A stretch of 64,000 bases of DNA, from NCBI GenBank assembly GCA_964483115.1, contig CAYZZF010000002.1, forward strand, positions 5,493 to 69,492. Direction: 5' to 3'. The notes under the pieces were generated by a model, which worked only from the letters and a program-made list of their open reading frames with translations, was not told the DNA's origin and searched no databases. The stretch is from an uncultured Gammaproteobacteria bacterium. Lineage in GTDB: Bacteria; Patescibacteriota; Microgenomatia; Levybacterales; UBA12049. Positions 5,275 to 44,580 of this stretch are shown here, in pieces. Each line of letters starts with the position of its first letter. Within the stretch, counting starts at the first letter, position 1. Made by a program: the position numbers and the translations under genes.

Positions 5275-5277
5275 AAC

Positions 5278-30656: not shown

Positions 30657-30664
30657 ACTGCTAA
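30638..30664 (+). promoter_or_regulatory. CIRCE element (HrcA operator) overlapping the promoter
   Basis: TTAGCAGTC-N9-TACTGCTAA against the consensus TTAGCACTC-N9-GAGTGCTAA, with 8/9 inverted-repeat arms. It is followed by a second imperfect palindrome, aaccccgattaaatcgggatt. Confidence 0.75.
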
Positions 30665-31553: not shown

Positions 31554-31603
31554 TTTAAAATAGAATATAAAATATAAAAATTAAAAAGGACTATTGAAGT
31601 GAG

Positions 31604-32044
31604 ATGGCAAAAAAAATAAAGAAAAATGCTGAAGAAGTTGAAAAAAAAGAACAAGAACTTGAAGATCAATTAAAAAGGATTTTAGCGGATTATCAGAATC
31701 TTGAGAAAAGAGTTGCCCAGGAAAAAGAGGAATTAAAAAAATCGGCAAACAGAGAGCTTATATTGCGGTTTTTGCCAGCACTTGATACACTAATTCTTAC
31801 AGATAAACATACTCAAGACGAGGGATTGAAATTGAGCATCAAACATATCTTTGATACGCTGGAAAAAGAAGGCCTTAAGAAAATCGAGGCAAAAGGACAG
31901 GATTTCAATCCGGAATTTATGGAAGCAGTGCATGTAGTTCAAGGTGAGGAAGGAAAAGTTATAGAAGAATTAAGAACAGGTTATTTTTTAAATGATAAAG
32001 TTTTGCGACCAGCACAGGTGGTTGTCGGACGACAACAAAATTAA
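31604..32044 (+). CDS. grpE: nucleotide exchange factor GrpE
   Basis: Coiled-coil N-terminus, ADYQNLEKR, and a C-terminal beta domain. Confidence 0.9.
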   Translation: MAKKIKKNAEEVEKKEQELEDQLKRILADYQNLEKRVAQEKEELKKSANRELILRFLPALDTLILTDKHTQDEGLKLSIKHIFDTLEKEGLKKIEAKGQDFNPEFMEAVHVVQGEEGKVIEELRTGYFLNDKVLRPAQVVVGRQQN

Positions 32045-32065
32045 AAATTTGACTGAAAGGAGCAT

Positions 32066-33967
32066 ATGGGAAAAATTATTGGAATAGATTTAGGCACAAC
32101 AAATTCATGTGTTGCCGTTATGGAAGGAGGAAGTCCCAAGGTTATTCATAGTGCAGAAGGAAGAAATGTTATACCATCGGTTATTGACCCGATTTCTCAT
32201 GTCGTTGGAGATGTAGCAAAAAGACAGCTTGTTCTTAAGCCTAAGAGCACTATTTTTTCCATAAAGAGGCTCATGGGTAGAAAATTCAAGGATGTATCAG
32301 TGCAGCAGGATATAAAATGGCTTCCATATACTGTAAAAGCTGGGAGAGACGGGATGGCGGTTGTTGAAGTTGATGGACGAACTTTTACTCCTCAGGAAAT
32401 TTCAGCCCAGATTTTGCAAAAAATTAAAAGTGATGCAGAAAGTTATCTAGGTAGCAAAGTTACACAGGCTGTTATTACTGTCCCTGCGTATTTTGACGAT
32501 TCACAGCGTCAAGCAACAAAACAGGCTGGAGAAATATCAGGACTTGAGGTTATGCGTATTATTAATGAGCCGACAGCAGCCGCTCTTGCCTATGGATTGG
32601 ATAAAAAAAATGCTCACACAATTGCTGTCTATGATTTAGGCGGCGGAACATTTGATATTTCAATTTTGGAGCTTGGAGAAGGAGTGTATGAGGTAAAATC
32701 AACAAATGGAGACACGCACTTAGGTGGAGATGATTTTGATCAAAAGATTATCGACTATATTGCAGAAGAGTTTAAGAAAGAGCACGGGGTAGATTTAAGA
32801 CGCGACCCGCAAGCACTGCAAAGACTCAAAGAAGCGGCAGAAAAGGCAAAGATAGAACTATCCACTGCTCAAGAAGCCCAGATTAATCAGCCATTTATTA
32901 CTCAAGGAAAAGAAGGACCACTGCATCTAACTATGACTCTAAGCCGTGCAAAACTTGAACAAATCGTTGATGAGCTTATTGAAAAAACAACAAAACCTGT
33001 TGAACTAGCCCTAAAAGATGCAAAAATTAAAGTCTCTGATGTTGATGAGGTTGTCCTGGTTGGAGGAATGACCAGAATGCCTAAAATTGTTGAAACAGTT
33101 ACTAAGTTCTTTGGTAAAGAGCCGCATAAAGGCGTTAATCCCGACGAAGTAGTAGCAGTTGGCGCGGCAATTCAAGGTGGAGTATTAGGAGGAGAAGTAA
33201 AAGATGTTCTTCTTCTTGATGTTACGCCTTTGACTTTAGGAATCGAGACATTGGGAGGGGTTGCAACCCCGCTTATTTCTAGAAATACAACTATACCTTC
33301 TTCTAAATCTCAAATTTTTTCAACAGCAGCAGATAATCAGACACAGGTTGAAATTAATGTTCTTCAGGGAGAACGTCCTATGGCAGCCGATAATAAATCA
33401 TTAGGCAGATTTATTTTAGACGGAATACCACCTGCCCCTCGCGGCATTCCTCAGATTGAGGTAAGTTTTGATATCGACGCAAATGGAATCTTAAATGTAA
33501 AAGCTCAAGACAAGGCAACTGGAAGAGAACAAAGTATTAAGATTACAGGTTCAACTGGCTTAACAAAAGATGAAATTGAAAAAATGACAAAGGAAGCAGA
33601 AAGGCATGCAAAAGAAGATTTGGAGAAAAAAGATAAGGTTGAGGCCAGAAATGCGGCGGATTCGCTCATCTTTACAGCCGAAAAAACTCTTAAAGAAGCA
33701 GGGAATAAAGCAGATCCGACTTTGAAAAAGGAAGTTGAAGATAAAGTTTCCGAGCTTAAATCAATTCTTGACACAGGCAGTAAAGATGATCTTGAAGCGA
33801 AAACAAAAGACTTATCTGATGCTTTACAAAAAGTAGGTCAGGCAATGTATAGTCAGCAACAGGCAACTTCCGACCAACAACAAACAACTGGAGACGCAGA
33901 GGAGACAAAACAAGAAGAGAAAAAATCCGACAAGGAAGAACCAGTTGAGGGAGAAGTCGTAAATTAA
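32066..33967 (+). CDS. dnaK: chaperone DnaK (Hsp70)
   Basis: [21 protein letters not shown], and full-length Hsp70. Confidence 0.97.
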
Positions 33968-33995
33968 TTCAAAATTCATAATTCAAAATTCAAAA
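33965..33995. repeat. intergenic copy of dispersed repeat (ttcaaaattcataattcaaaattcaaaatt)
   Basis: Its reverse complement is near-identical to the intragenic copy at 3598-3640. Confidence 0.6.
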
Positions 33996-33998
33996 TTG

Positions 33999-34022
33999 GC
34001 CGCGGAGACGCGGTTGTTTGTT
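33999..34022 (+). terminator. hairpin plus U-rich tract between dnaK and dnaJ (attenuating terminator)
   Basis: gccgcg-gaga-cgcggt stem-loop followed by ttgtttgtt. Confidence 0.45.
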
Positions 34023-34037
34023 ATAATATTGTAGCTT

Positions 34038-34934
34038 ATGGCAGAACAGAAAGATTTTTACGAAATTTTAGGCATTTCGAAAAATGCAACAGCCGATGAA
34101 ATAAAAAAGGCTTATAGAAAGCTTGCTCTTTCCTATCATCCTGATCGTAATAAGACTAAAGAAGCTGAGGAAAGATTTAAAGAGATAAATCAAGCTTACG
34201 AAGTTTTATCAGATTCAAAAAAAAGACAGGCTTATGACCAATTTGGGCAGACAGCTTTTACTCAAGGGTTTGGCCAGTCACCTTTTGGAGAAGGTTTTAG
34301 TGGACAGACAAGAACTGGGCGCTACGGACCGTTTACTTATACATACTCAGCTGGGCCGGGCGCTGATGAGGGCTTTGATTTTGGAGGATTTTCTGACCCA
34401 TTTGAAATATTTGAACAGTTTTTTGGTGGAGCTTCACCTTTTGGCTCACAAGCCCGCCAAAGACCAATTTACTCTCTAACAATTGAGTTCATGGAAGCAG
34501 TACATGGAACCACAAAAAAGGTAGTAATTGGTGGGAAAAATCAAACCATAAAAATTCCTAAAGGAGTTGACAATGGGTCAAGAATTCGTTTTGGTGAATA
34601 TGATGTAATTTTGGAGGTGCAACCAGACAGAAGATTTAGAAGAGAAGGTACAGACATAATTTCGGATGTTGAAGTTTCATTTACTAAGGCAGCTTTGGGA
34701 GATACGGTAACGGTTGAGACAATCGATGGACCAGTTAAGCTTCGTATCCCTGTCTCTACACAGCCGGGCACAGTTATACGTTTAAGACAAAAAGGAGTTC
34801 CTTATCTTCGAGGCTCAGGCAGAGGAGATCATTATGTGAGAATAAAAGTTATAATCCCTAAACATCTGACCAGCCACCAAAAAAAACTTCTTGAGGAACT
34901 TGAAAAAGAATCAACTAAAAAAAGCTGGTTTTAA
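34038..34934 (+). CDS. dnaJ: DnaJ-family co-chaperone lacking the Zn-finger domain (type II)
   Basis: J-domain (YHPDRNK) and a G/F-rich region; no CxxCxGxG repeats; C-terminal substrate-binding domains. Confidence 0.85.
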
Positions 34935-34981: not shown

Positions 34982-35302
34982 ATGTTACTATCCGGAGTTT
35001 TAGGTGCTACTTCTTGCAGAGTGAATGAAAAACTAACCGATTTTGGGTGTATTCCTAATGACCCCGTTGCTTTTGTTGCCAAATTTTATGGTATTGGACT
35101 TGGATTAATTGGCGGTGTTGCGATACTTTTTATTATCTACGGAGGGTATATTATTCTTGCTTCCCAAGGTGATCCGGTAAAATTGAATACTGGTAAAAGT
35201 TATATATATTATGCGATTGCCGGACTTCTCCTGGCAATTTTTGGATTTGTTTTTGTTCAGGTGATTGTTGTTGACATATTGCACATACCTGGGTTTAAAT
35301 AA
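34982..35302 (+). CDS. small two-helix membrane protein (pilin-like; TrbC/VirB2-like topology)
   Basis: Two long hydrophobic helices (IGLGLIGGVAILFIIYGGYIIL and YIYYAIAGLLLAIFGFVFVQVIVV) separated by a short polar loop. Sits 6 bp upstream of the large membrane protein. Confidence 0.45.
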   Translation: MLLSGVLGATSCRVNEKLTDFGCIPNDPVAFVAKFYGIGLGLIGGVAILFIIYGGYIILASQGDPVKLNTGKSYIYYAIAGLLLAIFGFVFVQVIVVDILHIPGFK

Positions 35303-35308
35303 GAATAT

Positions 35309-37627
35309 ATGATAAAATTTCTGCCCATTCTGCGAAAGATTCTTTTTATTCTTATTGCATTTTTTGTAATAGGACTTTCGCTATTTAGTTTTACTGCAAT
35401 AGCAAAAGCACAGTCAGCCCCAACCCCAACTGGAGTACCTGAAGGTTCCTGGGTAAAAGATCAGGAGGTAACTTTTGTTGGTAAAACTGCTGCCCGGTCA
35501 GGAGAATTTTTAGATTGGACGCTAAAAAATTATGATTGGTCCTCTGTTTCGCCGGGGACAAGCAATCCACTTGCTACATTTTGGGCGACTATTAGAAATA
35601 TTGTTTATGCGTTTTTTATTCTTTTTGTTTTGGTAACAGCGTTTGTAATTATTGTTACTCGAGGAAGAAACATAACAGTGGCCAAATTCATACCCAAACT
35701 TATTATCATAATTCTTTTGGTAACATTTTCTTTTGCATTAGTTCAATTTATCTATCAAGTTACAGATGCAATACAAGGCTTTTTCTTAAAGAGCCCATCT
35801 CCTGATTGTACTTCCATTTGTCAAAAAGATCTCTTTTACTGGGGTTGGAATTATCAAGATTTTGAAGGTTTCCGTTTTATTGATCAAGCCGGTACTTATG
35901 ATGAATCAGCTTTTATAGCTCTTCTCCTTGTTAGACTTACCGCTCTTACCTATTATGTTATGGTTGGAATACTTATACTTAGAAAAATAATACTTTGGTT
36001 TTTTATTATAATATCGCCCATATTTCCTCTTCTTCTTTTGTATTCCCCAATTAGAAATACCGCCAAAATCTGGGTCGGAGAGTTTTTTCGCTGGCTTTTA
36101 TATGCGCCTATATTTGCAATTTTTTTGTCCGGGCTAGTTGTAATCTGGCGCTCACAGACGAACATACCCTTACAGTTTAATCTTACAAATACAAAAGTTA
36201 TCTACCCAACTGCCATAAACATTCTTCTTGGAGGGCCCGGACAAGTATTATCATACGTTTCTCCCGCTCAATCAAATAGCGTAAACAACATTGACACTTT
36301 CGCCCTTTATGTAGTTGCGCTTCTTATGCTTTGGGTCGTTATAATTTTGCCGTTTCTTCTTCTTCAGATTTTTCTTGATTATCTTAACAATTTTTCATTC
36401 GGAGAAAGTGCTATTTTAAAACAGCTCATAGCTGGAGGATCAGCGTTTGTAAATAGAGCTGGTCCTGGACTAACTCCTCCGCCCCCTACGATTCCTGCTG
36501 GTATAGCCCGTGCTCTACCATTTATTCCAGGTAAGGTTGAGATACCCGAGATAAGAGCAACAGAGGCTATTATCAATGCACAAGTCGCAGATATGAGAGG
36601 AATACAGGCAAGTTCAGATATACTTCGTCTAGCTAGTCTAAGCGTTCCTACCATGCGTGATATCGCAAAATATGAAACTGCTCTTTTATCCTCAGACATA
36701 GGTAAGCATCAAGATATAGCAAGATTTCACGAAACATTAGAGGGAATTGCCAATCCAAAAAGGGTGGCAACACCTGCGGAAAGACAAAATTATAATCTTA
36801 TGCAGGGAAGACTAAAACGGGAAGCCCAAAGAGGGGATCCTCTGGCATCCTCCATATTATCCGCTGCCAGTATCGTTTCTAAATCTTCTTTACAAAATAA
36901 ACAAGAGGAAAATGCAAGAGTAGGCAGTATCCTTTCCAGGATGAATAATCTTGCTAGCATAATTTCAACTGAGGAGAAAGAAAGACTAAACGCAATAAAA
37001 TCGTCTCTTATAGAAGCTGCGCAGAAAGGGGATCCTCTGGCAAACTCTATTCTATCTGCGATGAAAGAAGGCAAGACAGAAATAGATGAGAAACTTAAAG
37101 AACAGCTGCTTGAAGCAAAAGAAAGAGGAAGCGCGCTAGCTGCATCAATTTTAGAACAAGCTGGTGTTTCTGTTACTGTACAGACGTTCCCTGTTACAAA
37201 TCGTGTGCAAGCAGTAAGTATAGATGATTACGAAGCGGTAAAGAAAGTCTGGCAAGAAAATTATCAGAAACTTGAGCCGCCAAGAACTATTGAAGGAAAA
37301 CAAAAAAACAGGGAAGAATGGATTATAGGAGACATAGATAGGATTACAGAAACTATTAATCTTCTTACATCGGAAGATGTTCAGAATATCAAAAAGGGCA
37401 TGGAAGAGGTTTCTGCAATACTCCCCTTCCTTCTTATAGGAGGGTTTGCTCAGACAGAAGTTATTGCCTATCTTAAAGCAAAACTTGAAGCTGCAAAATC
37501 AGTTTCCGAAGAAATCAGCAAAAAAGAAGAGGAAGAAGAAACTATGCTTGGAAGAGAGAAGGCTAAAACAGATAAGCCAGCGGAGATGGAAATGAAAGAA
37601 GAAGTTAAAGAAAACCAAAATAATTGA
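35309..37627 (+). CDS. large polytopic membrane protein with signal peptide and C-terminal cytoplasmic repeat/acidic domain; unknown function
   Basis: Signal-like N-terminus and about 8-10 TM helices. The C-terminal region carries a triple GDPLAxSILSA repeat and an EEEEE tail. Confidence 0.55.
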   Translation: MIKFLPILRKILFILIAFFVIGLSLFSFTAIAKAQSAPTPTGVPEGSWVKDQEVTFVGKTAARSGEFLDWTLKNYDWSSVSPGTSNPLATFWATIRNIVYAFFILFVLVTAFVIIVTRGRNITVAKFIPKLIIIILLVTFSFALVQFIYQVTDAIQGFFLKSPSPDCTSICQKDLFYWGWNYQDFEGFRFIDQAGTYDESAFIALLLVRLTALTYYVMVGILILRKIILWFFIIISPIFPLLLLYSPIRNTAKIWVGEFFRWLLYAPIFAIFLSGLVVIWRSQTNIPLQFNLTNTKVIYPTAINILLGGPGQVLSYVSPAQSNSVNNIDTFALYVVALLMLWVVIILPFLLLQIFLDYLNNFSFGESAILKQLIAGGSAFVNRAGPGLTPPPPTIPAGIARALPFIPGKVEIPEIRATEAIINAQVADMRGIQASSDILRLASLSVPTMRDIAKYETALLSSDIGKHQDIARFHETLEGIANPKRVATPAERQNYNLMQGRLKREAQRGDPLASSILSAASIVSKSSLQNKQEENARVGSILSRMNNLASIISTEEKERLNAIKSSLIEAAQKGDPLANSILSAMKEGKTEIDEKLKEQLLEAKERGSALAASILEQAGVSVTVQTFPVTNRVQAVSIDDYEAVKKVWQENYQKLEPPRTIEGKQKNREEWIIGDIDRITETINLLTSEDVQNIKKGMEEVSAILPFLLIGGFAQTEVIAYLKAKLEAAKSVSEEISKKEEEEETMLGREKAKTDKPAEMEMKEEVKENQNN

Positions 37628-37687
37628 TATTAAAAGTACCATCAGTGCTAAAATATATAAAAGGTAATGCTGTAAATAGATAGAAAT

Positions 37688-40243
37688 ATGTTTGGAAATT
37701 TATTCGGTTCAAGAAATTTTGAAGTAAAAACCGGGACTACTCAAGTTCCGCAGCAGGTGCCGGCATCTCCTTCTGTGCCGTCAGTCCAATCTGTCCAGCC
37801 TCTCCAATCTAATGTTGTCGGATCTGCCATGAACCCATCTTTAAGGCAGGATTTATCAGTGTTATCTCATTTAGACGCTAGAGCATCACAAGTATTACAA
37901 GCTGCTAAAAATGAAACAAAAAGAATTCAGCAATCACTTATTGAACCAGAGCAAATTCTCTACGGACTTTTATTTGACGGCGAAGTTTTCAAACTTATTT
38001 CACAATTTTCTTCAGACCCTACAAAGATCGTTAAGGAAATTGAAAGTAAAGAATCAGTCGGAAGTTTTATAGGAGAATCAACTCTGTCAGATACTTCAAA
38101 AAAGATCTTTGAAGATGCATATTCGATGGTAAAAAAAAGAGGAGTTGAGTTTATAAGTCCTGAAGATATTCTATTATCTCTCTTTTCACAAAGTGTAGGA
38201 GTCTCAAATTATCTTCAGTCAGAGGGAATTAAAAAAGAAGACATTGAAGAAAAACTTTCAAAGACATCAAGCTATGTCTATGGTAAAAAATCTGCACTTG
38301 AAAGTTTTGGTGTTGATTTGACAGAACAGGCGAGAAACGGGGAACTTGATCCAATTGCAGGACGAGATAAGGAAATTGAAAGACTTGTCCACATACTTCT
38401 TCGCAGAACCAAAAATAACCCTATTGTTATAGGAGAGGCAGGAGTTGGAAAAACAGCCATTGTTGAAGGATTAGCTCAAAATATCATAAAGGGCACTGCC
38501 CCCCGCGATCTTCTAGAAAAAAAAATTATCCAGATTGATTTATCCTCTCTTGTTGCGGGGGCATCGCACCGGGGGGAATTTGAGGAAAGACTCAGAAGCG
38601 TTATAAAAGAAACCCAAGCTGCAAGCGGAGCAGTAATATTATTCATTGATGAGATCCATACTTTGATTGGAGCAGGAGATACAGAAGGGGCTTTGGATGC
38701 ATCAAATATTATAAAGCCTTTTTTGGCAAGAGGACAACTCCAGATTATTGGAACAACAACGACTGCTGAATATAGAAAATATTTTGAAAAGGATAAAGCC
38801 TTTGAGAGAAGGTTTCAATCGGTTTTGGTTGCCGAACCCGATGAGAAAACAGCCGTTGAAATGCTTTTGGTTCTTAAAACAAAATACGAGAATTTTCATA
38901 AAGTTGTTCTGCCACAAGAGACTCTTGAGGCATCCGTTGCCCTATCAAAACGCTATATTGGCGAGCGGTATTTACCCGATAAGGCAGTTGATCTCCTGGA
39001 TGAGGCAGCAGCAGAAGTAAGGCTTTTGCAAAACGAAGGGAAGAGATCTGATAATACTGTTTCAAAAAGTGATATAGAAAAAGTTGTTTCAGGTTGGACA
39101 GGAATTCCTATAACAAAACTTACAGAAAATGAAAGCGAGAGACTTTTGCATCTTGAAGACACAATTCACAAGCGCTTAATCGATCAGGAAATGGCAGTTA
39201 AAACTGTTGCAGAAGCTGTAAGGCGAGGAAGGATCGGATTGTCAAGTGCCCAAAGGCCTATTGCATCATTTATATTCTTGGGACCAACCGGGGTTGGAAA
39301 AACAGAACTTGCAAAAACACTCGCTTCGATTCTCTTTGGCAAAGAGGAGGCAATGGTGAGACTTGATATGAGTGAGTATATGGAAAAACATGAGGTCGCA
39401 AAACTTATTGGCGCCCCTCCCGGTTATGTTGGTTATGAAGAAGGGGGTCAGTTAACAGAGGCAGTCAGGATAAAACCTTATTCTATAGTTCTTTTGGATG
39501 AGATAGAAAAAGCGCACCCGGATGTCTTTAATATTTTACTCCAGCTTCTTGAAGATGGAAGACTTACCGATAATAAGGGCAATACAGTATCTTTTAAGAA
39601 TACGATTATTATTGCAACATCAAATATCGGTAGTATGCTAATACAGCAGCAGTTGGAAACAGACAAAAAGGGAGGTTCGGAATTGCAGGAAAAAAGTGAT
39701 GCGAAAAAATTTGAGGAGCTTTCAAAGACCCTCCTTGCAGAACTTAGAAAATTCTTTAGACCCGAACTTTTGAACCGTTTTGATGGAGTTGTGATTTTTG
39801 AACCTTTATCTTTGAAAAACATGCTTTCTGTTGCCCAGCTTGGTATAGATGCAACTAAAAAATTGCTTAATCAACAGGGTATTGATCTTGATATTACACA
39901 AGAAGGGCTTTCTCAACTTGCTCGTGAAGGCTATGACCCGGTTTATGGAGCAAGACCGCTAAGGCGTCTTATTCAAAGCTCTATAGAAAATCCAATCGCT
40001 GTGCTTCTTATAAATAAAACTTTTATAGCAGGGGACAAGATTTTGATTGATTTTGATAAGATAAAAGAAGAGTTCATTTTTACAAAAGTTGCTCTGTCCC
40101 CAACCCAGCCAGGAACAACACAAGGCGAAACCCTGAATCCAGTTTCGGCAAATGACGGAAACTTTCCACCAGCACAACCTTTACAGCCGGAGGCACCACC
40201 AATACAGGGGATTGATGACACTCAAATGCAACCACAAAATTGA
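37688..40243 (+). CDS. clpB: ClpB/ClpC-family double-ring AAA+ chaperone lacking the M-domain, with disordered N- and C-terminal tails
   Basis: Clp_N repeats. D1 has GRDKEIERLVHILLRRTKNNPIVIGEAGVGKTA and Walker B FIDEIH. D2 has LGPTGVGKTELAK, LLDEIEKAHPDVFNILLQLLEDGRLTD and GARPLRRLIQ. Only about 9 residues separate DLLDEAAAEV from the D2 linker. There is no LGF ClpP loop. Confidence 0.85.
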   Translation: MFGNLFGSRNFEVKTGTTQVPQQVPASPSVPSVQSVQPLQSNVVGSAMNPSLRQDLSVLSHLDARASQVLQAAKNETKRIQQSLIEPEQILYGLLFDGEVFKLISQFSSDPTKIVKEIESKESVGSFIGESTLSDTSKKIFEDAYSMVKKRGVEFISPEDILLSLFSQSVGVSNYLQSEGIKKEDIEEKLSKTSSYVYGKKSALESFGVDLTEQARNGELDPIAGRDKEIERLVHILLRRTKNNPIVIGEAGVGKTAIVEGLAQNIIKGTAPRDLLEKKIIQIDLSSLVAGASHRGEFEERLRSVIKETQAASGAVILFIDEIHTLIGAGDTEGALDASNIIKPFLARGQLQIIGTTTTAEYRKYFEKDKAFERRFQSVLVAEPDEKTAVEMLLVLKTKYENFHKVVLPQETLEASVALSKRYIGERYLPDKAVDLLDEAAAEVRLLQNEGKRSDNTVSKSDIEKVVSGWTGIPITKLTENESERLLHLEDTIHKRLIDQEMAVKTVAEAVRRGRIGLSSAQRPIASFIFLGPTGVGKTELAKTLASILFGKEEAMVRLDMSEYMEKHEVAKLIGAPPGYVGYEEGGQLTEAVRIKPYSIVLLDEIEKAHPDVFNILLQLLEDGRLTDNKGNTVSFKNTIIIATSNIGSMLIQQQLETDKKGGSELQEKSDAKKFEELSKTLLAELRKFFRPELLNRFDGVVIFEPLSLKNMLSVAQLGIDATKKLLNQQGIDLDITQEGLSQLAREGYDPVYGARPLRRLIQSSIENPIAVLLINKTFIAGDKILIDFDKIKEEFIFTKVALSPTQPGTTQGETLNPVSANDGNFPPAQPLQPEAPPIQGIDDTQMQPQN

Positions 40244-40246
40244 TGT

Positions 40247-41845
40247 ATGAGCGATGGAAACATAAACCTCCTCCAGACAATTCCGGTTCAACACTTCAAT
40301 CCCCAAGACAAAAAGACCGCAATTTTTGGAACAAAAAAATTTATTTTCTCAGTTCTTTTTATAACTATTTTTGCAATCGCCTCTTTTATTTTCTTGGTAT
40401 CTTCAAAAAAACAATCTATGATATCACCCTCGGCTAATCCTTATCCCGCAAAATCTTTTAAAATGTGGGAGATTACATTTGTTTACGATACTGAAAAACA
40501 AACGCTCTCAGTTAAAAGTGCAATTATTAAGACTGGAACAGCAACTGCTTCCAATCTGGGACTGTCGCCATATAAACTTCTAGTTTTTAATAAAAATAAC
40601 AACGTTATTTTCAATACAGACATTCATATAACAGAAGGAATTCTCTATGATATTGATGGCCCGCCCAATGCTACTTCATCACCAATTATTGTTCCTTCTA
40701 CGCCCAAAACATTTGAAAACGTTGTTTATATCCCGTTATTTCAGAGTGCAAAAAAGATAGAGGTAACAAAAAATGGTATTAAGATATTGGAATTTACTCT
40801 CCCTAAAGTTACAGGATTTAATTTAATTAATCAAACATTTGCCGTAAATGGACCGGCTTGTACAACCAATCTAAAGATTGTATTTATTAGCGACGGATAC
40901 AACAGTGAAAGCCAGTTTTATAGCGATGCCCAAGAAGTGGTTAAAAAGTATATTTCTCTTTCTCCCTATTCTGAAAAGCCAGATATATTTGATTTTAAAA
41001 TGGTTTACAATACTATTCCTCTTGGTTGTGCTAAGAATGGTGTTCTATATACTGAGTGCTTGAGTTCTTTACAGACAATAATAATGGAAAAAAATATAAT
41101 TTTTGGAAAATATCCAGAACTTCAGGGAATTGATGGCGATCATTTAAAATTTATAGTTCTAGCAGATGCGCAACCTGAGCTATTTGGTGGATTGTTATAT
41201 ATGGGAGCTATGGAAGGCGTAGGCGGAGTTTATGGAGTCTTTGAAACGCGAGACCGCGATAAATTACCGACTGTTGCCTCCCACGAAGTATTAGGACATG
41301 CAGTAGGCTATCTATATGATAGATATGTGTATAGCTCAGGCCCAAATTCTCAGGAAAGAAGTGTTTTTCCAGAGAGCAACTGTAGTAGAAGTCAACAAGG
41401 AGCGTCCTTTTGGCAAAGCATTAATGGAGGAGGAGCATATCAAGGTTGTACATCTGAGTATTTGTTTGGACCTTACCCGCGTGATTGTGGGACAGGAGGA
41501 ACACGTGAGTCTATAATGAGTCTGGTAAGTTGTGGTTCAAGTGAATTTGATCCAGTCGAGCAAGCATGGATAAGAACTAATGTTATCTCAAAATACCAGT
41601 CTTGCAGTGGAAGCAGTCCATCCGCTTCTTTTCCGCCGACCTCGACTTCAATCCCCACTTTAGTTCCCAGGCAACCAACATCTATACAAGAGCCAGTTGT
41701 TACCCCAACCAGCACTTCCAGTGTTCCAACCACAGTTCCTACTTCAGCATCATTAACTACTTATGATTGCTATTCTGATCCAAACTGTCGTAATTCTGGC
41801 CAAGGGAATATTCAGCTATGCCCTCTTGTCTGCACTCCCAAATAA
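40247..41845 (+). CDS. membrane-anchored extracytoplasmic Cys-rich protein with HExxGH zinc-metallopeptidase motif (M64-like)
   Basis: N-in TM anchor; HEVLGHAVGYLYDRY; many Cys; C-terminal PT-rich region. Confidence 0.5.
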   Translation: MSDGNINLLQTIPVQHFNPQDKKTAIFGTKKFIFSVLFITIFAIASFIFLVSSKKQSMISPSANPYPAKSFKMWEITFVYDTEKQTLSVKSAIIKTGTATASNLGLSPYKLLVFNKNNNVIFNTDIHITEGILYDIDGPPNATSSPIIVPSTPKTFENVVYIPLFQSAKKIEVTKNGIKILEFTLPKVTGFNLINQTFAVNGPACTTNLKIVFISDGYNSESQFYSDAQEVVKKYISLSPYSEKPDIFDFKMVYNTIPLGCAKNGVLYTECLSSLQTIIMEKNIIFGKYPELQGIDGDHLKFIVLADAQPELFGGLLYMGAMEGVGGVYGVFETRDRDKLPTVASHEVLGHAVGYLYDRYVYSSGPNSQERSVFPESNCSRSQQGASFWQSINGGGAYQGCTSEYLFGPYPRDCGTGGTRESIMSLVSCGSSEFDPVEQAWIRTNVISKYQSCSGSSPSASFPPTSTSIPTLVPRQPTSIQEPVVTPTSTSSVPTTVPTSASLTTYDCYSDPNCRNSGQGNIQLCPLVCTPK

Positions 41846-41883
41846 TAAATTGCAATTTAGACAAAAACCTCTTACACTAAAAA

Positions 41884-42197
41884 TGATGGCTTGGGATTTT
41901 TTAAAATTTTGGTTCTTCGAAGCTCCAAGAGAAATATTAAATTTCTTTACCTCCCTTAACAAATCTTTTCTGGAATTAGTTTCTCTTCAACTTTTGGTAA
42001 AAACATATTTTAAAGCCTGGAAAAATGAGTACAGGGAGGGACTGGTTGGATTCTCGATTGCAATGGGAATATTTATAAAAACCCTTGTTATTTTTGCCGA
42101 TATAATTTTGTTTTCCATTCTTTTGTCAATTGAAATAATATTATTTTCTGCGTTTATTTTTTGGCCGATTGGAACAGTCATTTTGCTTTTTATTTAA
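41884..42197 (+). CDS. small membrane protein, unknown
   Basis: Two TM helices. The ATG at 41884 is preferred because it avoids the overlap with the upstream gene. Confidence 0.35.
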
Positions 42198-42198
42198 T

Positions 42199-44580
42199 AT
42201 GATCGGATACGCAAGAATTTATAATTTTTACACAACAAATATTATAAGATTATTAAGATTTGTTATTTTTATTTTTCTTCTATGGAGTACCTATCAATCT
42301 GTTTCTAATAGTTTTTTCCTTTCTGCCTCCTCTCGCATATCAATTTTTCTTCTATCCGTCTTCTTAATACTTGAGGTTTTTTTTCGCTTTAAAATCTCAA
42401 GATTGACTCCCAGAGTTTCGATTTCAGAAAATGAAGGCAAAAATATCTACACATCCTTTACTTTTAAAAGTTTATATGTTTTTTTAGGCAAAACAACATC
42501 AATAATAAAATTACTTCTTAAAGAAAAATCCAGCCTTTTTATTCTTGAAAAATCAGACATCAGGCAAAACGAGGTGTCACTTATCGATATTTCAAAAGAA
42601 GACTTAGGTGCGTATTCCCTTGAGGTTTCAAAAAATCTGAAGGGAAAATTTGTAACTACAATGGATATTTTAGTTTCCTATCTTCTATTAACTGAAGACA
42701 AAACCAAACTCTTGTTTAATAAAAATCTTAAAAAAGAGGAGCTAATGCATATTCTTTACTGGGCTCGCTTAAGATTTTCTGATGAAGAAAATCCAAAACC
42801 TTTTATGATAAATTTTTGGGGGGAAGGAATTGGAGAAGGCATGGTTTCGGGTTGGACTATAGAAACAAAAAAATACATGGTTGATAAAACATCGGAGATT
42901 TTAAGAAAAAGGACAACTCTCTTTGGGAAAGAGTCTGAATATAGACAGATCTTAGAAGCGTTATATCAGCAAAAAAGTGTTATTCTAGTTGGGGAGCAAG
43001 GGGTTGGTAAAGAAGAAATTATTGAAAGCCTTGCTTTTGAAAGTTTTACCGGCAGTTTGAGAGGAAGCCTTTATCATCAGAGGTTTTTTGAGCTTTTGAT
43101 TGATGCGCTTATTGCAGGATCTCAAAATCAAGGAGAACTTGAATCCCGTCTTGATGCAATTATCGCAGAGCTTGCCCACTCTGGCAATATAATTGTTTAT
43201 ATCCCATCTTTTGAAAATATCTTGGGATCTTCCTCTTTCCATATCGACCTTTCAGGAGTCCTTGCTCCGTATCTTGAAAGAGGAGTAATTCGCATAATTG
43301 CAACTGTTAGCCTTGGAGCATATAAAAAATTTGTTGAGGCGCGAAAAACACTGATGAATGCGTTCCAAGTTGTAAAACTTGAAGAGCCTGACAAGGATTT
43401 GACTCTACAGATGTTATTTAGGAAAACTCTAGATATTGAGGGAATTTACAGCGTTGATTTGACTTACAAATCTGTTATCGCGGCAGCTACGTACGGAAAA
43501 CAATATTTACCAGGAAGTTATTTGCCTGGCGCGGCTTTTGAGCTTCTTAAAGACACCGCCAATATGGTATTTCTTAGAGGTAAAAAAATTGTTGAAGAGG
43601 AGGATGTTATTGAAAAAGTAAAGACCCAAACAAAAATTGCAATTGGAAAGCCAAAAGGAAAAGAGAAAGAATTACTGCTCCATCTTGAGAATGAGATGCA
43701 TAAGCGAATTATTGATCAGGAAGAAGCTGTATCAGAGGTCTCAGAAGCTATGCGGCGGCTTCGAACAGGCATTACCACTCTTAATAAACCTATTTCATTT
43801 TTATTTTTGGGACCTACAGGGGTTGGAAAAACAGAAACAGCAAAAACTCTAGCCGCGCTTTACTTTGGAGGAGAAAACAAAATGATAAGGCTTGATATGA
43901 GTGAATATTCGGGGGATGACGCAGCCAGAAGACTATTGGGATCTTTACCGGGTGAAGAAGAAGAAAGAGGAGAGCTTACAGATAAAGTCTATGATAATCC
44001 GTTTTCATTAATTCTTCTTGATGAATTTGAGAAGGCAAATATTAATGTACTTAATTTATTCTTGCAGGTTTTGGATGACGGGCGACTAACTGATAATAAA
44101 GGAAGAACCGTATCTTTTGTCAATGCTATTATTATTGCAACCTCAAATGCCGCATCAGAATTTATTAGAGAGGAGATCGGAAAAGGTGCTACTGTAAATA
44201 AAAAATTTCAAGAAAAACTTCTCGAGTTTTTACAAACAAAAGGAATTTTTAAGCCAGAGCTTCTAAATAGGTTTGACGGAATAATTGTTTTTAAACCATT
44301 AGGGCAAGGAGAGGTGGTTCAAGTTATAAAGCTTTTGCTTTCAGAATTATCTAGAAAAATGCAAGAGCAGGATGTTGCTATCATTTTCGATGACAAAATA
44401 ATAGAAAAAATTATTAACGAAGGTTTTGATGAACAGTTTGGCGCCCGCCCCCTGCGCCGATATATTCAGGACAACATCGAAGATTTAATTGCCCAAAAAA
44501 TCTTAAAGGACGAGATAAAACGCGGGGACAAAATTTCCGTCTCAACTGATGGAAATCAATTTCTAATTTCTAAATCCTAA
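42199..44580 (+). CDS. membrane-anchored Clp-like AAA+ ATPase with degenerate D1 and intact D2
   Basis: N-terminal 2 TM (LLRFVIFIFLLW, ISIFLLSVFLILEVFF). D1 Walker A is degenerate (GEQGVGKEE, no T/S after the Lys), and D1 Walker B is replaced (YIPSFENIL). D2 is canonical: LGPTGVGKTETAK, LLDEFEKA, GARPLRRYIQ. Confidence 0.75.
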   Translation: MIGYARIYNFYTTNIIRLLRFVIFIFLLWSTYQSVSNSFFLSASSRISIFLLSVFLILEVFFRFKISRLTPRVSISENEGKNIYTSFTFKSLYVFLGKTTSIIKLLLKEKSSLFILEKSDIRQNEVSLIDISKEDLGAYSLEVSKNLKGKFVTTMDILVSYLLLTEDKTKLLFNKNLKKEELMHILYWARLRFSDEENPKPFMINFWGEGIGEGMVSGWTIETKKYMVDKTSEILRKRTTLFGKESEYRQILEALYQQKSVILVGEQGVGKEEIIESLAFESFTGSLRGSLYHQRFFELLIDALIAGSQNQGELESRLDAIIAELAHSGNIIVYIPSFENILGSSSFHIDLSGVLAPYLERGVIRIIATVSLGAYKKFVEARKTLMNAFQVVKLEEPDKDLTLQMLFRKTLDIEGIYSVDLTYKSVIAAATYGKQYLPGSYLPGAAFELLKDTANMVFLRGKKIVEEEDVIEKVKTQTKIAIGKPKGKEKELLLHLENEMHKRIIDQEEAVSEVSEAMRRLRTGITTLNKPISFLFLGPTGVGKTETAKTLAALYFGGENKMIRLDMSEYSGDDAARRLLGSLPGEEEERGELTDKVYDNPFSLILLDEFEKANINVLNLFLQVLDDGRLTDNKGRTVSFVNAIIIATSNAASEFIREEIGKGATVNKKFQEKLLEFLQTKGIFKPELLNRFDGIIVFKPLGQGEVVQVIKLLLSELSRKMQEQDVAIIFDDKIIEKIINEGFDEQFGARPLRRYIQDNIEDLIAQKILKDEIKRGDKISVSTDGNQFLISKS

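What the first reader, a model, noticed from the sequence alone, without database searches (positions are those of the whole stretch)
34982..44580. Heat-shock-operon-linked membrane/AAA+ cluster: pilin-like 2-TM protein, 772-aa polytopic protein, M-domain-less ClpB, extracellular HExxGH protease, membrane-anchored Clp ATPase with dead D1
Six same-strand genes follow immediately after hrcA-grpE-dnaK-dnaJ: a 106-aa two-helix protein (TrbC/VirB2-like topology), a 772-aa signal-peptide polytopic membrane protein (internal GDPLAxSILSA repeats, acidic tail), a ClpB-like double-AAA+ protein with no coiled-coil M-domain and no ClpP-docking loop, a membrane-anchored Cys-rich extracellular protein with an HExxGH zinc motif, a small membrane protein, and a second Clp-like ATPase. 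That second ATPase has two N-terminal TM helices and a D1 ring whose Walker A (GVGKEE) and Walker B (SFEN) look catalytically inactive, while D2 is canonical.

A membrane-tethered Hsp100 with a pseudo-ATPase D1, paired with an M-domain-less ClpB that could not engage DnaK in the usual way, is not a described arrangement. The co-linear gene order suggests one envelope proteostasis or secretion-associated module, possibly under HrcA/CIRCE control through read-through from dnaJ.
Basis: partly seen in the sequence, partly recalled or inferred. Interest (0 to 1): 0.75.

Follow-up and report, generated by a model that had tools for sequence, protein, structure and literature searches.

The report
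Heat-shock-linked pilin, channel, Clp ATPase cluster
In an uncultured ultra-small bacterium (Candidatus Levybacteria), the DnaK heat-shock operon runs straight into a conserved set of genes for a secretion-type pilin, a divergent VirB6-like membrane protein, two unusual Clp/Hsp100 ATPases (one membrane-anchored and half-dead) and a swappable surface protease; the combination looks like an undescribed envelope machine.

Summary
The six genes are real, sit at the stated coordinates and have nearly all the stated features.

- **g1:** a VirB2/T4SS-pilin-like 2-TM protein.
- **g2:** a remote TrbL/VirB6 homologue with a helical 'GDPLAxSIL' repeat tail.
- **g3:** a ClpB/ClpC-like double AAA+ protein with no M-domain and no ClpP loop. 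Its D1 pore-loop Tyr is His.
- **g4:** a membrane-anchored HExxGH protease.
- **g5-g6:** an invariably adjacent pair. g5 is a small 2-TM protein. g6 is a 2-TM-anchored Hsp100 whose D1 Walker B, Arg fingers and both pore-loop tyrosines are lost family-wide, while the D2 ATPase motifs are intact.

Comparative results:

- Of 74 independent g2 loci, about 95% keep dnaK-operon, g1, g2, g3. In one lineage the block lies between dnaK and dnaJ.
- Some g3 orthologues carry g2's repeats.
- The g4 slot holds unrelated proteases (S8, M4, M28, M64-like) that share a cluster-specific C-terminal 4-Cys tag.
- A CIRCE element heads the operon.

I read this as a Levybacteria-specific, T4SS-derived envelope module run by Hsp100 ATPases. 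The gene linkage is shown; the mechanism is inferred. I found no description of it in the literature.

The parts
30628..30664 (+). Promoter-like site (TTGACA-17-TATATT with TG) overlapping a CIRCE-like inverted repeat, TTAGCAGTC-N9-TACTGCTAA, upstream of hrcA
   Evidence: The same element lies 30-220 nt upstream of hrcA in at least 33 related loci. None was found in front of g1, g3 or g5.
30798..34934 (+). hrcA (30798-31553), grpE (31604-32044), dnaK (32066-33967), dnaJ (34038-34934)
   Evidence: ORFs. Orthologues carry the HrcA, GrpE, HSP70 and DnaJ Pfam families. A terminator-like hairpin lies between dnaK and dnaJ at 33997-34016.
34982..35302 (+). g1: 106-aa VirB2/T4SS-pilin-like protein. 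It has a short N-tail with a Cys-x10-Cys loop (aa 12-23), two TM helices and a conserved D.L.IPGF C-terminus.
   Evidence: There are 58 distinct orthologues with a highly conserved pattern. Orthologues and paralogues pass the PF18895 threshold, and one nearly reaches the TrbC/VirB2 threshold.
35309..37627 (+). g2: 772-aa divergent VirB6/TrbL-like polytopic membrane protein. Parts: signal peptide; TM domain at about aa 89-362 with the invariant LRKIILWFFI...NTAKIWxGEFFRWLLYAP; helical repeat tail (GDPLAxSIL at aa 509, 574, 607); conserved C-terminal module; acidic end (aa 738-772).
37688..40243 (+). g3: 851-aa class-I Hsp100 with a Clp_N domain and two intact AAA+ modules. It has no M-domain (junction aa 443-474) and no ClpP-docking tripeptide (loop aa 649-689). 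The D1 pore loop is AGASHRGEFE (Tyr->His). It has P/Q-rich disordered N- and C-terminal tails.
   Evidence: Orthologues of 1300-1500 aa carry g2-type repeats at their C-terminus.
40247..41845 (+). g4: 532-aa N-terminally membrane-anchored extracellular M64-like metalloprotease candidate. It has HEVLGH at aa 346-351, a P/T-rich linker and a C-terminal 4-Cys tag, CYSDPNCRNSGQGNIQLCPLVC, at aa 508-529.
   Evidence: The slot holds S8, M4, M28, M64-like or cohesin proteins in other genomes. The tag is found only in slot proteins.
41883..42197 (+). g5: about 104-aa protein with a conserved T[YF]FKPWKNEYRxGLVGFSIAMG motif and two C-terminal TM helices. It is the obligate upstream partner of g6.
   Evidence: It is adjacent to g6 (from a 4-nt overlap to a 3-nt gap) in every locus, including the distant paralogue L107.
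42199..44580 (+). g6: 793-aa membrane-anchored Hsp100 paralogue. It has a TM hairpin (aa 14-66) and a Clp_N-like helical domain. D1 is degenerate: Walker A GEQGVGKE (aa 265-272), Walker B IPSF (aa 335-338), no Arg fingers, pore loop QNQ. D2 is intact (GPTGVGKT, LLDEFE, sensor-1 N, LNRFD, GARPLRR) but its pore-loop GYVG is deleted (aa 581-593). There is no M-domain.

Best explanation
This is a module specific to Levybacteria (Microgenomates, CPR). It is grafted onto the HrcA/CIRCE-controlled dnaK operon and has two parts.

**Part A (g1-g4): a T4SS-derived surface apparatus**
- g1 is a VirB2-like pilin and g2 a divergent VirB6-like membrane platform.
- g2's helical-repeat tail is inferred to be cytoplasmic and to recruit g3.
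- g3 is a soluble Hsp100 with no M-domain and no ClpP loop. I propose it supplies the ATP-driven pulling that extracts, assembles or recycles pilin-type subunits. That is the job VirB4 does in canonical systems.
- The g4 slot encodes the variable extracellular payload. It is a Sec-exported, N-terminally anchored protease whose conserved C-terminal 4-Cys tag docks it to the apparatus.

**Part B (g5-g6): a separable membrane pair**
- g6 has a non-hydrolysing D1 ring, which probably serves for assembly, and an active D2 ring.
- It has no aromatic pore-loop residues. It most likely works as a non-threading remodeller or as a membrane tether (possibly in mixed rings with its paralogue g3), not as an unfoldase.

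**Shown:** gene content, motif states, conserved linkage, repeat sharing, the protease slot with its tag, and the CIRCE element.

**Inferred:** tail topology, g2-g3 docking, the role of the tag, the division of labour between g3 and g6, and co-transcription.
For: **Linkage**
- Among 74 distinct g2 proteins sampled on g2 alone, g1 is directly upstream in 60 of 63. g3 is within 1.7 kb downstream in 49 of 51. The dnaK operon is upstream in 41 of 43.
- In 8 loci the g1-g2-g3(-g4) block lies between dnaK and dnaJ, so the block moves as a unit inside the operon.
- In L104 g3, a pilin array and g2 stay together away from dnaK.
- g3 and g4 overlap by 4 nt in many loci. g5 and g6 overlap or are 1-3 nt apart in all loci.

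**Physical-link hint**
- The C-terminal extensions of long g3 orthologues match g2 residues 463-632, with pairwise E values of 1e-9 to 2e-10.

**T4SS ancestry**
- g1 and its relatives hit PF18895 and TrbC.
- 9 of 24 g2 relatives hit TrbL/VirB6.
- The published survey found VirB6 'scarce' in Microgenomatia and attributed this to divergence (PMC12102498).

**Payload**
- Of the large slot proteins scanned, 17 are Peptidase_S8, 6 are M4, 3 are M28, 3 are M64-like and 3 carry cohesin domains.
- All 35 regex hits for the 4-Cys tag are slot proteins. The only hit in the 64-kb window is g4.

**g6 family**
- The D1 Walker B Asp is Pro in 91 of 100 sequences. The D1 Walker A Lys is Arg in 26 of 100. The D2 motifs are invariant.
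- The AF2 model shows a TM hairpin, a helical N-domain and two AAA+ modules (pLDDT 84).

**Regulation**
- A conserved CIRCE element sits only at the head of the operon.
Against: - No experiment or expression data exist.
- Every sampled locus comes from one candidate phylum, so conserved synteny could partly reflect shared descent.
- g5-g6 occurs without g1-g4 next to it in 9 of 22 genomes. The six genes are therefore not one obligate machine.
- g2's topology is ambiguous. Counting six TM helices after an N-out start would place the repeat tail outside the cell.
- g4-type proteins have their own signal anchor and need no special exporter.
- The slot is empty in 10 loci (9 with gaps of 0-161 nt, plus L105).
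- A canonical VirB4 encoded elsewhere in the genome could serve g1 and g2. I could not scan whole genomes.
- g3's position might simply reflect a ClpB-like heat-shock role.
Confidence: 0.45

Rival explanations
1. The genes share a neighbourhood and a regulator but not a function.
- g3 and g6 are the lineage's divergent heat-shock Hsp100 chaperones, naturally placed beside dnaK.
- g1 and g2 are spare parts of the CPR type IV secretion system and work with a VirB4 encoded near dnaA.
- g4 is a nutritional exoprotease.
- The order is kept by descent within one phylum and by compact operon packing.
For: - All loci are from Levybacteria-like genomes.
- g5-g6 stands alone after dnaJ in 9 of 22 genomes.
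- In L003 a g2 paralogue lies away from any Clp gene.
- The published survey places the CPR T4SS core near dnaA and often finds pilins far from virB4.
- clpB and clpC genes commonly belong to heat-shock regulons (general knowledge).
Against: - g2-type repeats are fused to g3 in a sister lineage.
- The g1-g2-g3 block relocates as a unit into the dnaK-dnaJ gap, and also to a non-dnaK site in L104.
- Unrelated proteases replace one another in one slot while keeping a slot-specific C-terminal tag.
- g3 and g4 show 4-nt overlaps, which suggest translational coupling.
- g3 lacks the M-domain needed for canonical DnaK cooperation.
Confidence: 0.3
2. The cluster is an envelope protein quality-control module induced by heat.
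- g3 in the cytosol and g6 at the membrane (with g5) extract or hold misfolded membrane and secretory proteins.
- g4-type anchored proteases degrade damaged surface proteins, much as HtrA does in monoderm bacteria.
- g1 and g2 are abundant envelope clients or a stress sensor.
For: - The cluster sits inside a CIRCE-headed chaperone operon.
- g6 is membrane-anchored like FtsH.
- A protease with an extracellular catalytic domain is nearly always present.
Against: - g6 has no aromatic pore-loop residues in either ring, and g3 has lost the D1 pore-loop tyrosine. Both are odd for extraction or unfolding motors.
- The idea does not explain why a pilin and a VirB6-like protein are the most tightly linked partners.
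- It does not explain why g3 shares repeats with g2.
- It does not explain the protease tag.
Confidence: 0.15
3. The cluster encodes an Hsp100-driven export translocon, analogous to Plasmodium PTEX.
- g3 unfolds cytosolic cargo and threads it through a g2 channel to the cell surface or into a host cell.
- g1 forms the external conduit.
For: - g3 keeps a canonical D2 pore loop and two active ATPase modules.
- It lies next to a VirB6-like polytopic protein that has a long tail.
- There are precedents for Hsp100 proteins coupled to membrane pores, namely HSP101-EXP2 (PMC6550532). PTEX HSP101 is among g3's PDB sequence matches.
Against: - No cytosolic cargo candidates are encoded in the cluster. 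The only variable 'cargo-like' proteins carry Sec-type signal anchors.
- VirB6 proteins are not known to form stand-alone protein-conducting pores (general knowledge).
- No coupling-protein-like or relaxase-like genes are nearby.
Confidence: 0.1

Closest known systems
Class-I Clp/Hsp100 ATPases (ClpB, ClpC, ClpA)
   Same: - g3 and g6 have the Clp_N-type N-domain, two AAA+ modules and the ClpB_D2-small domain.
- Their best PDB sequence matches are S. aureus and B. subtilis ClpC and T. thermophilus ClpB.
- g3 has intact Walker A/B motifs in both rings and a canonical D2 pore loop.
   Different: - Neither protein has an M-domain, which makes them ClpA-like.
- Neither has the ClpP-docking tripeptide, which makes them unlike ClpA and ClpC.
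- Both score below the NCBIfam cut-offs for ClpB and ClpA.
- g3 has His in place of the D1 pore-loop Tyr and has long P/Q-rich tails.
- g6 adds two TM helices. It has lost the D1 Walker B, the D1 Arg fingers and the aromatic residues of both pore loops.
Minimal VirB2 + VirB6 + ATPase systems: the archaeal Ced DNA-import system (CedA1/CedA/CedB; PMC9905601) and the MPF-FATA-like T4SS of Patescibacteria (PMC12102498)
   Same: - A small two-TM VirB2-like pilin is encoded next to a polytopic VirB6-like protein and a hexameric ATPase gene.
- CPR genomes are already known to carry PF18895 pilins, pilin arrays and VirB6 homologues.
   Different: - The adjacent ATPase is an Hsp100 AAA+ protein, not a VirB4/CedB-type ATPase.
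- No VirB4, VirB3, VirB8 or coupling protein lies in the window or within 8-10 kb in about 100 loci.
- The block is embedded in a heat-shock operon, not near dnaA.
- g2 was probably missed by published VirB6 profiles.
Hsp100 ATPases coupled to membrane machines: Plasmodium PTEX (HSP101-EXP2; PMC6550532) and Francisella ClpB in type VI secretion (PMC7182274)
   Same: - A ClpB-family ATPase is recruited to a secretion or translocation apparatus and does not act only as a general disaggregase.
   Different: - Those ATPases keep their M-domain and pore-loop tyrosines.
- Their partners are unrelated to VirB6 and VirB2.
- No bacterial example pairs an Hsp100 with T4SS-type membrane parts.
AAA+ rings that do not hydrolyse or do not thread: NSF-D2-type assembly rings and Torsins (PMC5425593)
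   Same: - g6's D1 keeps a P-loop but has lost its catalytic residues, like an assembly ring.
- g6 is related to ClpB D2, is membrane-associated and lacks aromatic pore-loop residues. It is encoded with a small membrane partner (g5). In these respects it resembles Torsin with LAP1/LULL1.
   Different: - g6's D2 keeps its own Arg finger and sensor-2, so it needs no activator to complete its active site.
- g6 is bacterial, has two rings and faces the cytoplasm (inferred).
- No homology between g5 and LAP1 is implied.
C-terminal sorting or docking tags on secreted enzymes (T9SS CTD, LPXTG/sortase, PEP-CTERM/exosortase, dockerin-cohesin)
   Same: - Otherwise unrelated secreted hydrolases share a short, conserved extreme-C-terminal module.
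- Their genes lie beside the candidate partner machinery.
   Different: - The tag is a roughly 25-residue 4-Cys motif, C-x2-D-P-x-C-x6-9-[IL]Q-x-C-x-L-x-C-T-x-x. It has no TM helix and no basic tail.
- No processing enzyme is identified.
- The sortase in the window (60668-61396) is 16 kb away, and no LPXTG motif is involved.
FtsH
   Same: - It is an AAA+ ATPase anchored by two N-terminal TM helices and belongs to the heat-shock/proteostasis repertoire.
   Different: - g6 has two AAA+ modules of the Clp type, no protease domain and no pore-loop aromatic residue.

Membership tests
ClpB (NCBIfam TIGR03346), tested on g3 | Whole-protein score above the curated cut-off | tested here: not met
   g3 scores 876.9 bits against a cut-off of 1232.1, and the match is split into two stretches.
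ClpB, tested on g3 | Coiled-coil M-domain of about 120 aa inserted in the D1 small subdomain (the DnaK docking site) | tested here: not met
   Only 29-31 residues lie between PDKAxDLxDE and GWTGIP in g3 and in all 21 of its 52 orthologues where both motifs were located. S. aureus ClpC residues 423-457 have no counterpart.
ClpB/ClpC/ClpA, tested on g3 | Two AAA+ modules with intact Walker A/B, sensor and Arg-finger motifs, plus the D2-small domain | tested here: met
   Pfam finds AAA, AAA_lid_9, AAA_2 and ClpB_D2-small. The motifs GEAGVGKT, ILFIDEIH, GPTGVGKT and LLDEIE are present.
ClpB/ClpC/ClpA, tested on g3 | Aromatic pore-loop residue in D1 (KYR) and in D2 (GYVG) | tested here: inconclusive
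   D2 has a canonical GAPPGYVG. D1 is AGASHRGEFE in 49 of 52 orthologues (AGAAHRGEFE in two, AGASRRGEFE in one), so the Tyr is absent in all 52.
ClpA/ClpC (ClpP-activating Hsp100), tested on g3 and g6 | Conserved [LIV]-G-[FL] ClpP-docking tripeptide in the D2 surface loop | tested here: not met
   In g3 orthologues the loop is 35-95 aa long, charged and variable. A hydrophobic-Gly-hydrophobic match occurs in only 2 of 50. g6 has a short loop with no motif. The ClpA model scores 706.8 bits against a cut-off of 993.
Class-I Hsp100, tested on g6 | Catalytically competent D1 (Walker B Asp-Glu, Arg fingers) | tested here: not met
   g6 has IPSF where IDEx is expected. That position is Pro in 91 of 100 orthologues. 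The Arg-finger RR is replaced (LMNAFQ). The residue after the Walker A Lys is unconstrained.
Class-I Hsp100, tested on g6 | Competent D2 ATPase site | tested here: met
   GPTGVGKT, LLDEFEKA, ATSN, LNRFD and GARPLRR are invariant or nearly so.
Class-I Hsp100, tested on g6 | Soluble cytosolic protein with substrate-threading aromatic pore loops | tested here: not met
   Two N-terminal TM helices are predicted. The D1 loop is QNQ and the D2 GYVG is deleted.
TrbL/VirB6 (PF04610), tested on g2 | Profile match above the Pfam threshold | tested here: inconclusive
   The window protein gives no hit. Of 24 family members, 9 match at E <= 0.05, best 5.7e-6. Precomputed TrbL or TrbL_3 hits exist on 3 relatives.
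TrbL/VirB6, tested on g2 | Polytopic inner-membrane protein (5 or more TM helices) with a VirB6-like fold | tested here: inconclusive
VirB2/TrbC/T4SS_pilin (PF18895, PF04956), tested on g1 | Profile match above threshold, and a protein of about 100 aa with a two-TM hairpin | tested here: inconclusive
   g1 itself scores 20.9 bits against a cut-off of 26.6. An orthologue in L001 and paralogues in L083 and L103 pass, at 30.6-33.9 bits (a third L103 copy scores 26.5, just under the cut-off), and one scores 26.8 against 27.9 for TrbC. The two-TM topology is met. No cleavable signal peptide is present.
Type IV secretion system (as a system) | A VirB4-family ATPase encoded with the membrane components | tested here: not met
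   No VirB4, CagE or DUF87-type protein was found in the 64-kb window. None was recognisable within 8-10 kb in L001-L106. Whole genomes could not be scanned.
Peptidase M64 / zincins, tested on g4 | Profile match above threshold and an HEXXH zinc motif | tested here: not met
   PF09471 scores 16.8 bits against a cut-off of 26. The motif is HEVLGH, with the two histidines five residues apart, and it is conserved as HE[FVL]xGH..G.L[YW]DRY. From memory, peptidase M49 (DPP III) uses HELLGH, so this spacing can bind zinc. That point was not tested here.
HrcA/CIRCE regulon | CIRCE inverted repeat at the operon promoter | tested here: met
   The element TTAGCAGTC-N9-TACTGCTAA lies at 30638-30664 and overlaps a promoter-like site matching 11 of 12 consensus positions. 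It is conserved upstream of hrcA in at least 33 loci.
HrcA/CIRCE regulon | g1-g6 transcribed from that promoter | not testable with these tools
   The evidence is indirect only. Gaps are short, no terminator-like site lies between dnaJ and g1, and the block lies between dnaK and dnaJ in 8 loci.

The most novel reading that the evidence does not exclude
The cluster may encode a previously unrecognised kind of bacterial envelope machine.
- It would be a T4SS-derived pilin/VirB6 apparatus whose motor is an Hsp100 (Clp) ATPase and not VirB4.
- The motor would dock through a shared helical-repeat module.
- The apparatus would display or release interchangeable proteases addressed by a dedicated C-terminal 4-Cys tag.
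- It would be assisted by a new membrane-anchored, non-threading Hsp100 subfamily (g6) and its small partner (g5).
- The whole set would be co-regulated with DnaK as part of the epibiotic or scavenging lifestyle of Levybacteria.
Probability: 0.3. Interest if true: 0.9.

Novelty: new variant of a known kind. Interest (0 to 1): 0.75.

Why it matters
**Hsp100 biology.** g6 defines a membrane-anchored class-I Hsp100 subfamily of about 60 clusters at 50% identity. It has a pseudo-ATPase D1 and no pore-loop aromatic residues. That challenges the view that bacterial Clp/Hsp100 proteins are soluble threading motors. It also offers a bacterial counterpart to Torsin-like, non-threading AAA+ proteins.

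**A DnaK-linked Clp without an M-domain.** g3 shows that a ClpB-like protein can stay embedded in the dnaK operon after losing the M-domain that normally couples it to DnaK.

**CPR cell biology.**
- The g2 family probably supplies the VirB6 component reported as 'missing' in Microgenomatia.
- This VirB6-like protein and its pilin are tied to AAA+ chaperones and to tagged surface proteases, not to a VirB4.
- If these parts work together, this is a new way of building or servicing a cell-surface structure in organisms that depend on contact with, and scavenging from, other cells.
- The 4-Cys tag would be a new sorting or docking signal, useful for predicting the surface proteome.

Tried and rejected
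**Searches that failed or returned little**
- The genome-collection scan with a 29-sequence N-terminal alignment of the g6 family failed, because no stretch was conserved enough. A closer 8-sequence alignment worked but reached only Levybacteria-like genomes.
- The third homology search, using a profile of distant g6 N-termini, returned only 7 fragments. The taxonomic breadth of the distant g6 subgroups therefore stays unresolved. One look-up showed another g5-g6 pair in a Levybacteria genome beside type IV pilus genes.
- PDB sequence searches with the g2 tail and with g4 gave nothing useful.

**Ideas considered and rejected**
- g6's dead D1 is a sequencing error. The same substitutions occur in 100 orthologues.
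- g3 is ClpA. It has no ClpP loop and scores below the ClpA cut-off.
- g3 is a T6SS ClpV. It scores below that cut-off (668 against 885 bits), and there are no T6SS genes nearby.
- The window's sortase serves g4. It lies 16 kb away and g4 has no LPXTG motif.
- There is a second CIRCE element in front of g3. Only a half-site, CAGTGCTAA, is present in the g2-g3 spacer.

**Other negative results**
- No tRNA or mobile-element signature was found. This is a housekeeping chromosomal region.

Full report
**Setting.** The window is a housekeeping stretch of a CPR/Patescibacteria chromosome with 31-40% G+C.
- It has no tRNA genes or mobile-element marks.
- Exact copies of g2 and g6 occur on a 107-kb NCBI contig.
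- Their closest named relatives are 'Candidatus Levybacteria', that is, Levyibacteriota in the Microgenomates group.
- Around the finding lie metG, a small hydrophobic ORF, hrcA-grpE-dnaK-dnaJ, the six genes, and then nusA-infB.
- The rest of the window encodes envelope glycosyltransferases, MurJ, LepA, GroEL, PNPase, RNase J, FtsK, a sortase and similar functions. There is no VirB4-like ATPase.

- g1 (106 aa) has two TM helices. It gives weak hits to T4SS_pilin (PF18895) and to a mycoplasma ICE pilin-like family.
- Across 58 distinct orthologues its pattern is nearly fixed: C-x8-10-C, then DP..FV, TM1, a short basic loop, TM2, and D.L.IPGF.
- g2 (772 aa) has a signal peptide, a very conserved polytopic N-terminal half, a helical tail with three 'G[DS]xLAxSIL' repeats, a conserved C-terminal module and an acidic end.
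- g3 best matches ClpC and ClpB structures.
- The junction from D1 to D2 in g3 is only 29 residues. S. aureus ClpC residues 423-457 and the whole ClpB M-domain have no counterpart.
- The D2 surface loop that carries the ClpP-docking tripeptide in ClpA and ClpC is, in g3 orthologues, a variable charged stretch of 35-95 residues. No hydrophobic-Gly-hydrophobic motif is conserved in it.
- g3 falls below the curated cut-offs for ClpB, ClpA and ClpV.
- g4 has an N-terminal signal anchor, a conserved HE[FVL]xGH..G.L[YW]DRY motif (HEVLGH here) and a Cys-rich end.
- g6, read from ATG 42199, has two N-terminal TM helices and a Clp_N-like helical domain.
- Its D1 is degenerate: GEQGVGKE, IPSF for IDEx, no Arg fingers, and pore loop QNQ.
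- Its D2 has intact ATPase motifs, but the pore-loop GYVG is deleted.
- g6 is 36% identical to g3 over 724 residues. It is co-linear with g3 through the junction that lacks the M-domain, so the two are paralogues.

**The oddities are properties of the families.**
- In 100 Levybacteria g6 orthologues the Walker B Asp position is Pro in 91.
- The Walker A Lys is Arg in 26, and the next residue is essentially free.
- The D2 motifs are invariant.
- An exhaustive profile-free search with the N-terminal 470 residues found about 60 clusters at 50% identity that share the TM anchor, down to 27% identity. After those come ordinary Clp D1 domains.
- Across these representatives the same picture holds. 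D1 Walker B and Arg fingers are lost in nearly all, D2 is intact, and there is no GYVG.
- One subgroup keeps a Tyr or Phe a few residues downstream.

**Gene linkage.** I sampled twice, independently.
- The first scan searched species-representative genomes with the g6-specific N-terminus. It gave 22 Levybacteria-like loci.
  - g5 lies immediately upstream of g6 in every readable case, from a 4-nt overlap to a 3-nt gap. The pair always sits between dnaJ and nusA-infB.
  - g1-g4 intervene in the seven loci that contain a g3 homologue. They are absent between dnaJ and g5 in nine.
- The second scan searched metagenome contigs with the conserved g2 membrane domain. It gave 80 loci with 74 distinct g2 proteins at 38-69% identity.
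  - g1 is directly upstream in 60 of 63 readable cases.
  - g3 is within 1.7 kb downstream in 49 of 51, and directly adjacent in 34. The four larger gaps I inspected each hold a roughly 460-aa secreted protein with no Pfam match.
  - The dnaK operon is upstream in 41 of 43.
  - In eight loci the order is hrcA-grpE-dnaK-g1-g2-g3-(g4)-dnaJ-g5-g6. The block has moved as a unit into the operon.
  - The two exceptions, L103 and L104, are a divergent version with arrays of two or three pilin genes, g2 and a SpoIID-like cell-wall hydrolase. In L104 g3 is still on the same strand 3 kb upstream.
  - g3 and g4 overlap by 4 nt in many loci.
- A distant g6 paralogue in another Levybacteria genome again has a g5 homologue (40% identity) overlapping its start. 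It lies beside type IV pilus genes and not beside dnaK.
- I conclude there are two modules. g1-g2-g3 with a variable g4 is one, and g5-g6 is the other. They are usually, but not always, concatenated behind the dnaK operon.

**What g1 and g2 are.**
- An orthologue of g1 carries a precomputed PF18895 hit.
- Paralogues in L103 pass the PF18895 threshold, and one nearly reaches TrbC/VirB2 at 26.8 against 27.9 bits.
- Larger proteins of 280-500 aa upstream of hrcA in five loci consist of a signal peptide, a Cys-rich ectodomain, a PPPPSPPC linker and a C-terminal g1-type pilin domain. One example, L083, was scanned and scores 30.6 bits for PF18895, above threshold. So this lineage uses the pilin domain as a membrane or filament module for displaying ectodomains.
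- For g2, 9 of 24 relatives match TrbL/VirB6, with a best E of 5.7e-6.
- The AF2 model is all-helical, with pLDDT 76.7.
- I accept g2 as a remote VirB6 relative on the sequence evidence and treat the fold evidence as weak.
- This fits the published survey of the Patescibacteria T4SS. It found VirB2-like pilins widely, often far from virB4. It found VirB6 'scarce' in Microgenomatia and suggested extreme divergence. It mentions no Clp or AAA+ partner (PMC12102498).

**Two findings that argue for a functional unit.**
- **Shared repeats.** In a sister lineage g3 is 1300-1500 aa long. Its C-terminal extension is built from the same repeats as the g2 tail. Pairwise BLAST against window g2 residues 463-632 gives E values from 1e-9 to 2e-10, and each extension holds several G[DN]xLAxxIL units.
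  - A repeat shared by a cytosolic ATPase and the tail of its membrane neighbour suggests two things. The tail is probably cytoplasmic. The two proteins probably meet each other or bind a common partner.
- **The protease slot.** The position between g3 and g5 is filled by different secreted enzymes in different genomes. Among the large slot proteins scanned, 17 carry Peptidase_S8, six thermolysin M4, three M28, three the M64-like domain of the window type, and three cohesin.
  - Despite unrelated catalytic domains, they share an N-terminal anchor, a P/T-rich linker and an extreme-C-terminal motif, C-x2-D-P-x-C-x6-9-[IL]Q-x-C-x-L-x-C-T-x-x.
  - All 35 regex matches in the fetched loci are slot proteins. 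The only match in the 64-kb window is g4.
  - The slot is empty in 10 loci: nine with gaps of 0-161 nt, plus L105.
  - Replacement of one protease family by another while a slot-specific tag is retained is what one expects of interchangeable cargo addressed to a neighbouring apparatus.

**Regulation.**
- A CIRCE-like inverted repeat, TTAGCAGTC-N9-TACTGCTAA, overlaps the best promoter-like site in the region, upstream of hrcA.
- It is conserved at that position in at least 33 loci and is not found before g1, g3 or g5.
- The only terminator-like hairpin in an intergenic gap between hrcA and g6 lies between dnaK and dnaJ.
- Read-through control by HrcA is therefore plausible, and nearly unavoidable where the block precedes dnaJ. 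It remains untested.

**Most likely mechanism (inference).**
- g1 and g2 form a T4SS-derived pilin and platform pair in the membrane.
- g3 is brought to the g2 tail and provides ATP-driven pulling to extract, assemble or recycle pilin-type subunits. VirB4 does this in canonical systems and CedB in the archaeal Ced system (PMC9905601).
- The g4-slot protease is exported by Sec and attached through its Cys tag as the functional payload.
- g6 with g5 is a membrane-anchored ATPase with a D1 that serves only for assembly and smooth pore loops. It more likely remodels or tethers, perhaps in mixed rings with g3, than threads substrates.
- Partial precedents exist for Hsp100 proteins serving membrane machines: PTEX HSP101-EXP2 and Francisella ClpB in type VI secretion (PMC6550532, PMC7182274). 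Torsins are a precedent for non-threading, membrane-associated ClpB-D2 relatives (PMC5425593).

**Main rivals.**
- The genes may be merely co-located and co-regulated, with independent functions and a VirB4 elsewhere.
- The cluster may be a heat-induced envelope quality-control module.
- It may be a PTEX-like exporter.
- The separability of g5-g6, the ambiguous g2 topology, the restriction to one phylum and the lack of any expression or interaction data keep my confidence in the specific mechanism below one half.

**Novelty.**
- Each family has known relatives, so I file the finding as a new variant of known kinds.
- I found no description of a membrane-anchored Hsp100 with a pseudo-ATPase D1.
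- I found none of an Hsp100 without an M-domain embedded with VirB2/VirB6-like genes in the dnaK operon.
- I found none of the 4-Cys-tagged protease slot.
- Public annotation calls g6 simply 'ATP-dependent Clp protease ATP-binding subunit' and g2 'hypothetical protein'.

Noticed in passing
L083:3-1493(-), L086:1898-3277(-), L089:1203-2312(-), L092:2516-3355(-), L099:1009-2238(-): Proteins of 280-500 aa encoded divergently upstream of hrcA. The three I read (L083, L086, L099) combine a signal peptide, a Cys-rich repetitive ectodomain and a PPPPSPPC linker with a C-terminal g1-type T4SS_pilin domain. In this lineage the pilin fold serves as an anchor or filament module for surface display.
   Followed up: partly
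L103:6667-10319 and L104:4333-10178: A divergent version of the cluster. It has arrays of 2-3 pilin paralogues (two of three above the PF18895 threshold, the third at 26.5 against 26.6 bits, one near the TrbC/VirB2 threshold), a g2 homologue, a SpoIID-like cell-wall hydrolase and several unannotatable 190-714-aa proteins. It lies away from the dnaK operon. In L104 g3 is still 3 kb upstream.
   Followed up: partly
L027:6365-7741, L028:10355-11737, L033:10251-11636, L041:10209-11591: In up to 15 loci a gene of about 460 aa is inserted between g2 and g3. It has an N-terminal hydrophobic anchor and no Pfam match. It may be a lineage-specific accessory component. I inspected four of these loci.
   Followed up: partly
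L107:9657-11019 (Levybacteria contig JAUSNA010000069.1): A second, distant g5-g6 pair (g5 is 40% identical) sits divergently next to a type IV pilus cluster (PilB-like T2SSE, PilC-like T2SSF, N_methyl pseudopilins). This hints that g5-g6 may serve envelope filaments in general.
   Followed up: partly
window 51132-52199 (+): A 355-aa protein has an AAA domain and a Lon-type lid domain but no Lon protease domain. It is a stand-alone Lon-like ATPase lying between PNPase and RNase J.
   Followed up: no
window 60668-63617 (-): A sortase gene overlaps the end of a 742-aa protein with a weak Baseplate_J-like hit. The same pair, with the same neighbours (YceG, pyrimidine phosphorylase), occurs in L003, so it is a conserved unit.
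   Followed up: no
window 37628-37687 (g2-g3 spacer): The 60-nt spacer contains CAGTGCTAAAAT. This is a CIRCE right-half-like sequence that also reads as an extended -10 (TGcTAAAAT). It could be an internal promoter for g3, or it could be chance.
   Followed up: no
window 37688-37870 and 40078-40240 (g3 termini): g3 has P/S/Q-rich, low-complexity N- and C-terminal extensions. In long orthologues these grow to about 180 and about 200 residues. Such disordered tails are unusual for bacterial Clp ATPases.
   Followed up: partly
window 30089-30424 (-): A 111-aa, extremely hydrophobic ORF (3-4 TM helices, F/L-rich) lies between metG and the hrcA promoter. It has no annotation.
   Followed up: no
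window 2397-9679 (-) and 24232-25722 (-): Several PMT_2-type (dolichyl-phosphate-mannose-like) glycosyltransferases and a DUF2298 membrane protein point to extensive envelope or protein glycosylation capacity. This may bear on the P/T-rich linkers of the slot proteases.
   Followed up: no
L013:7026-7577, L031:13056-13604 and similar ORFs after g3: ORFs of about 180 aa just upstream of the S8 slot proteases. In the two tested with a hit (L013, L031) they encode a Fervidolysin-type N-terminal prodomain; L005 and L071 gave no Pfam hit. They overlap the protease ORF, so they are either separately encoded prodomains or frameshifted starts of the protease gene.
   Followed up: partly
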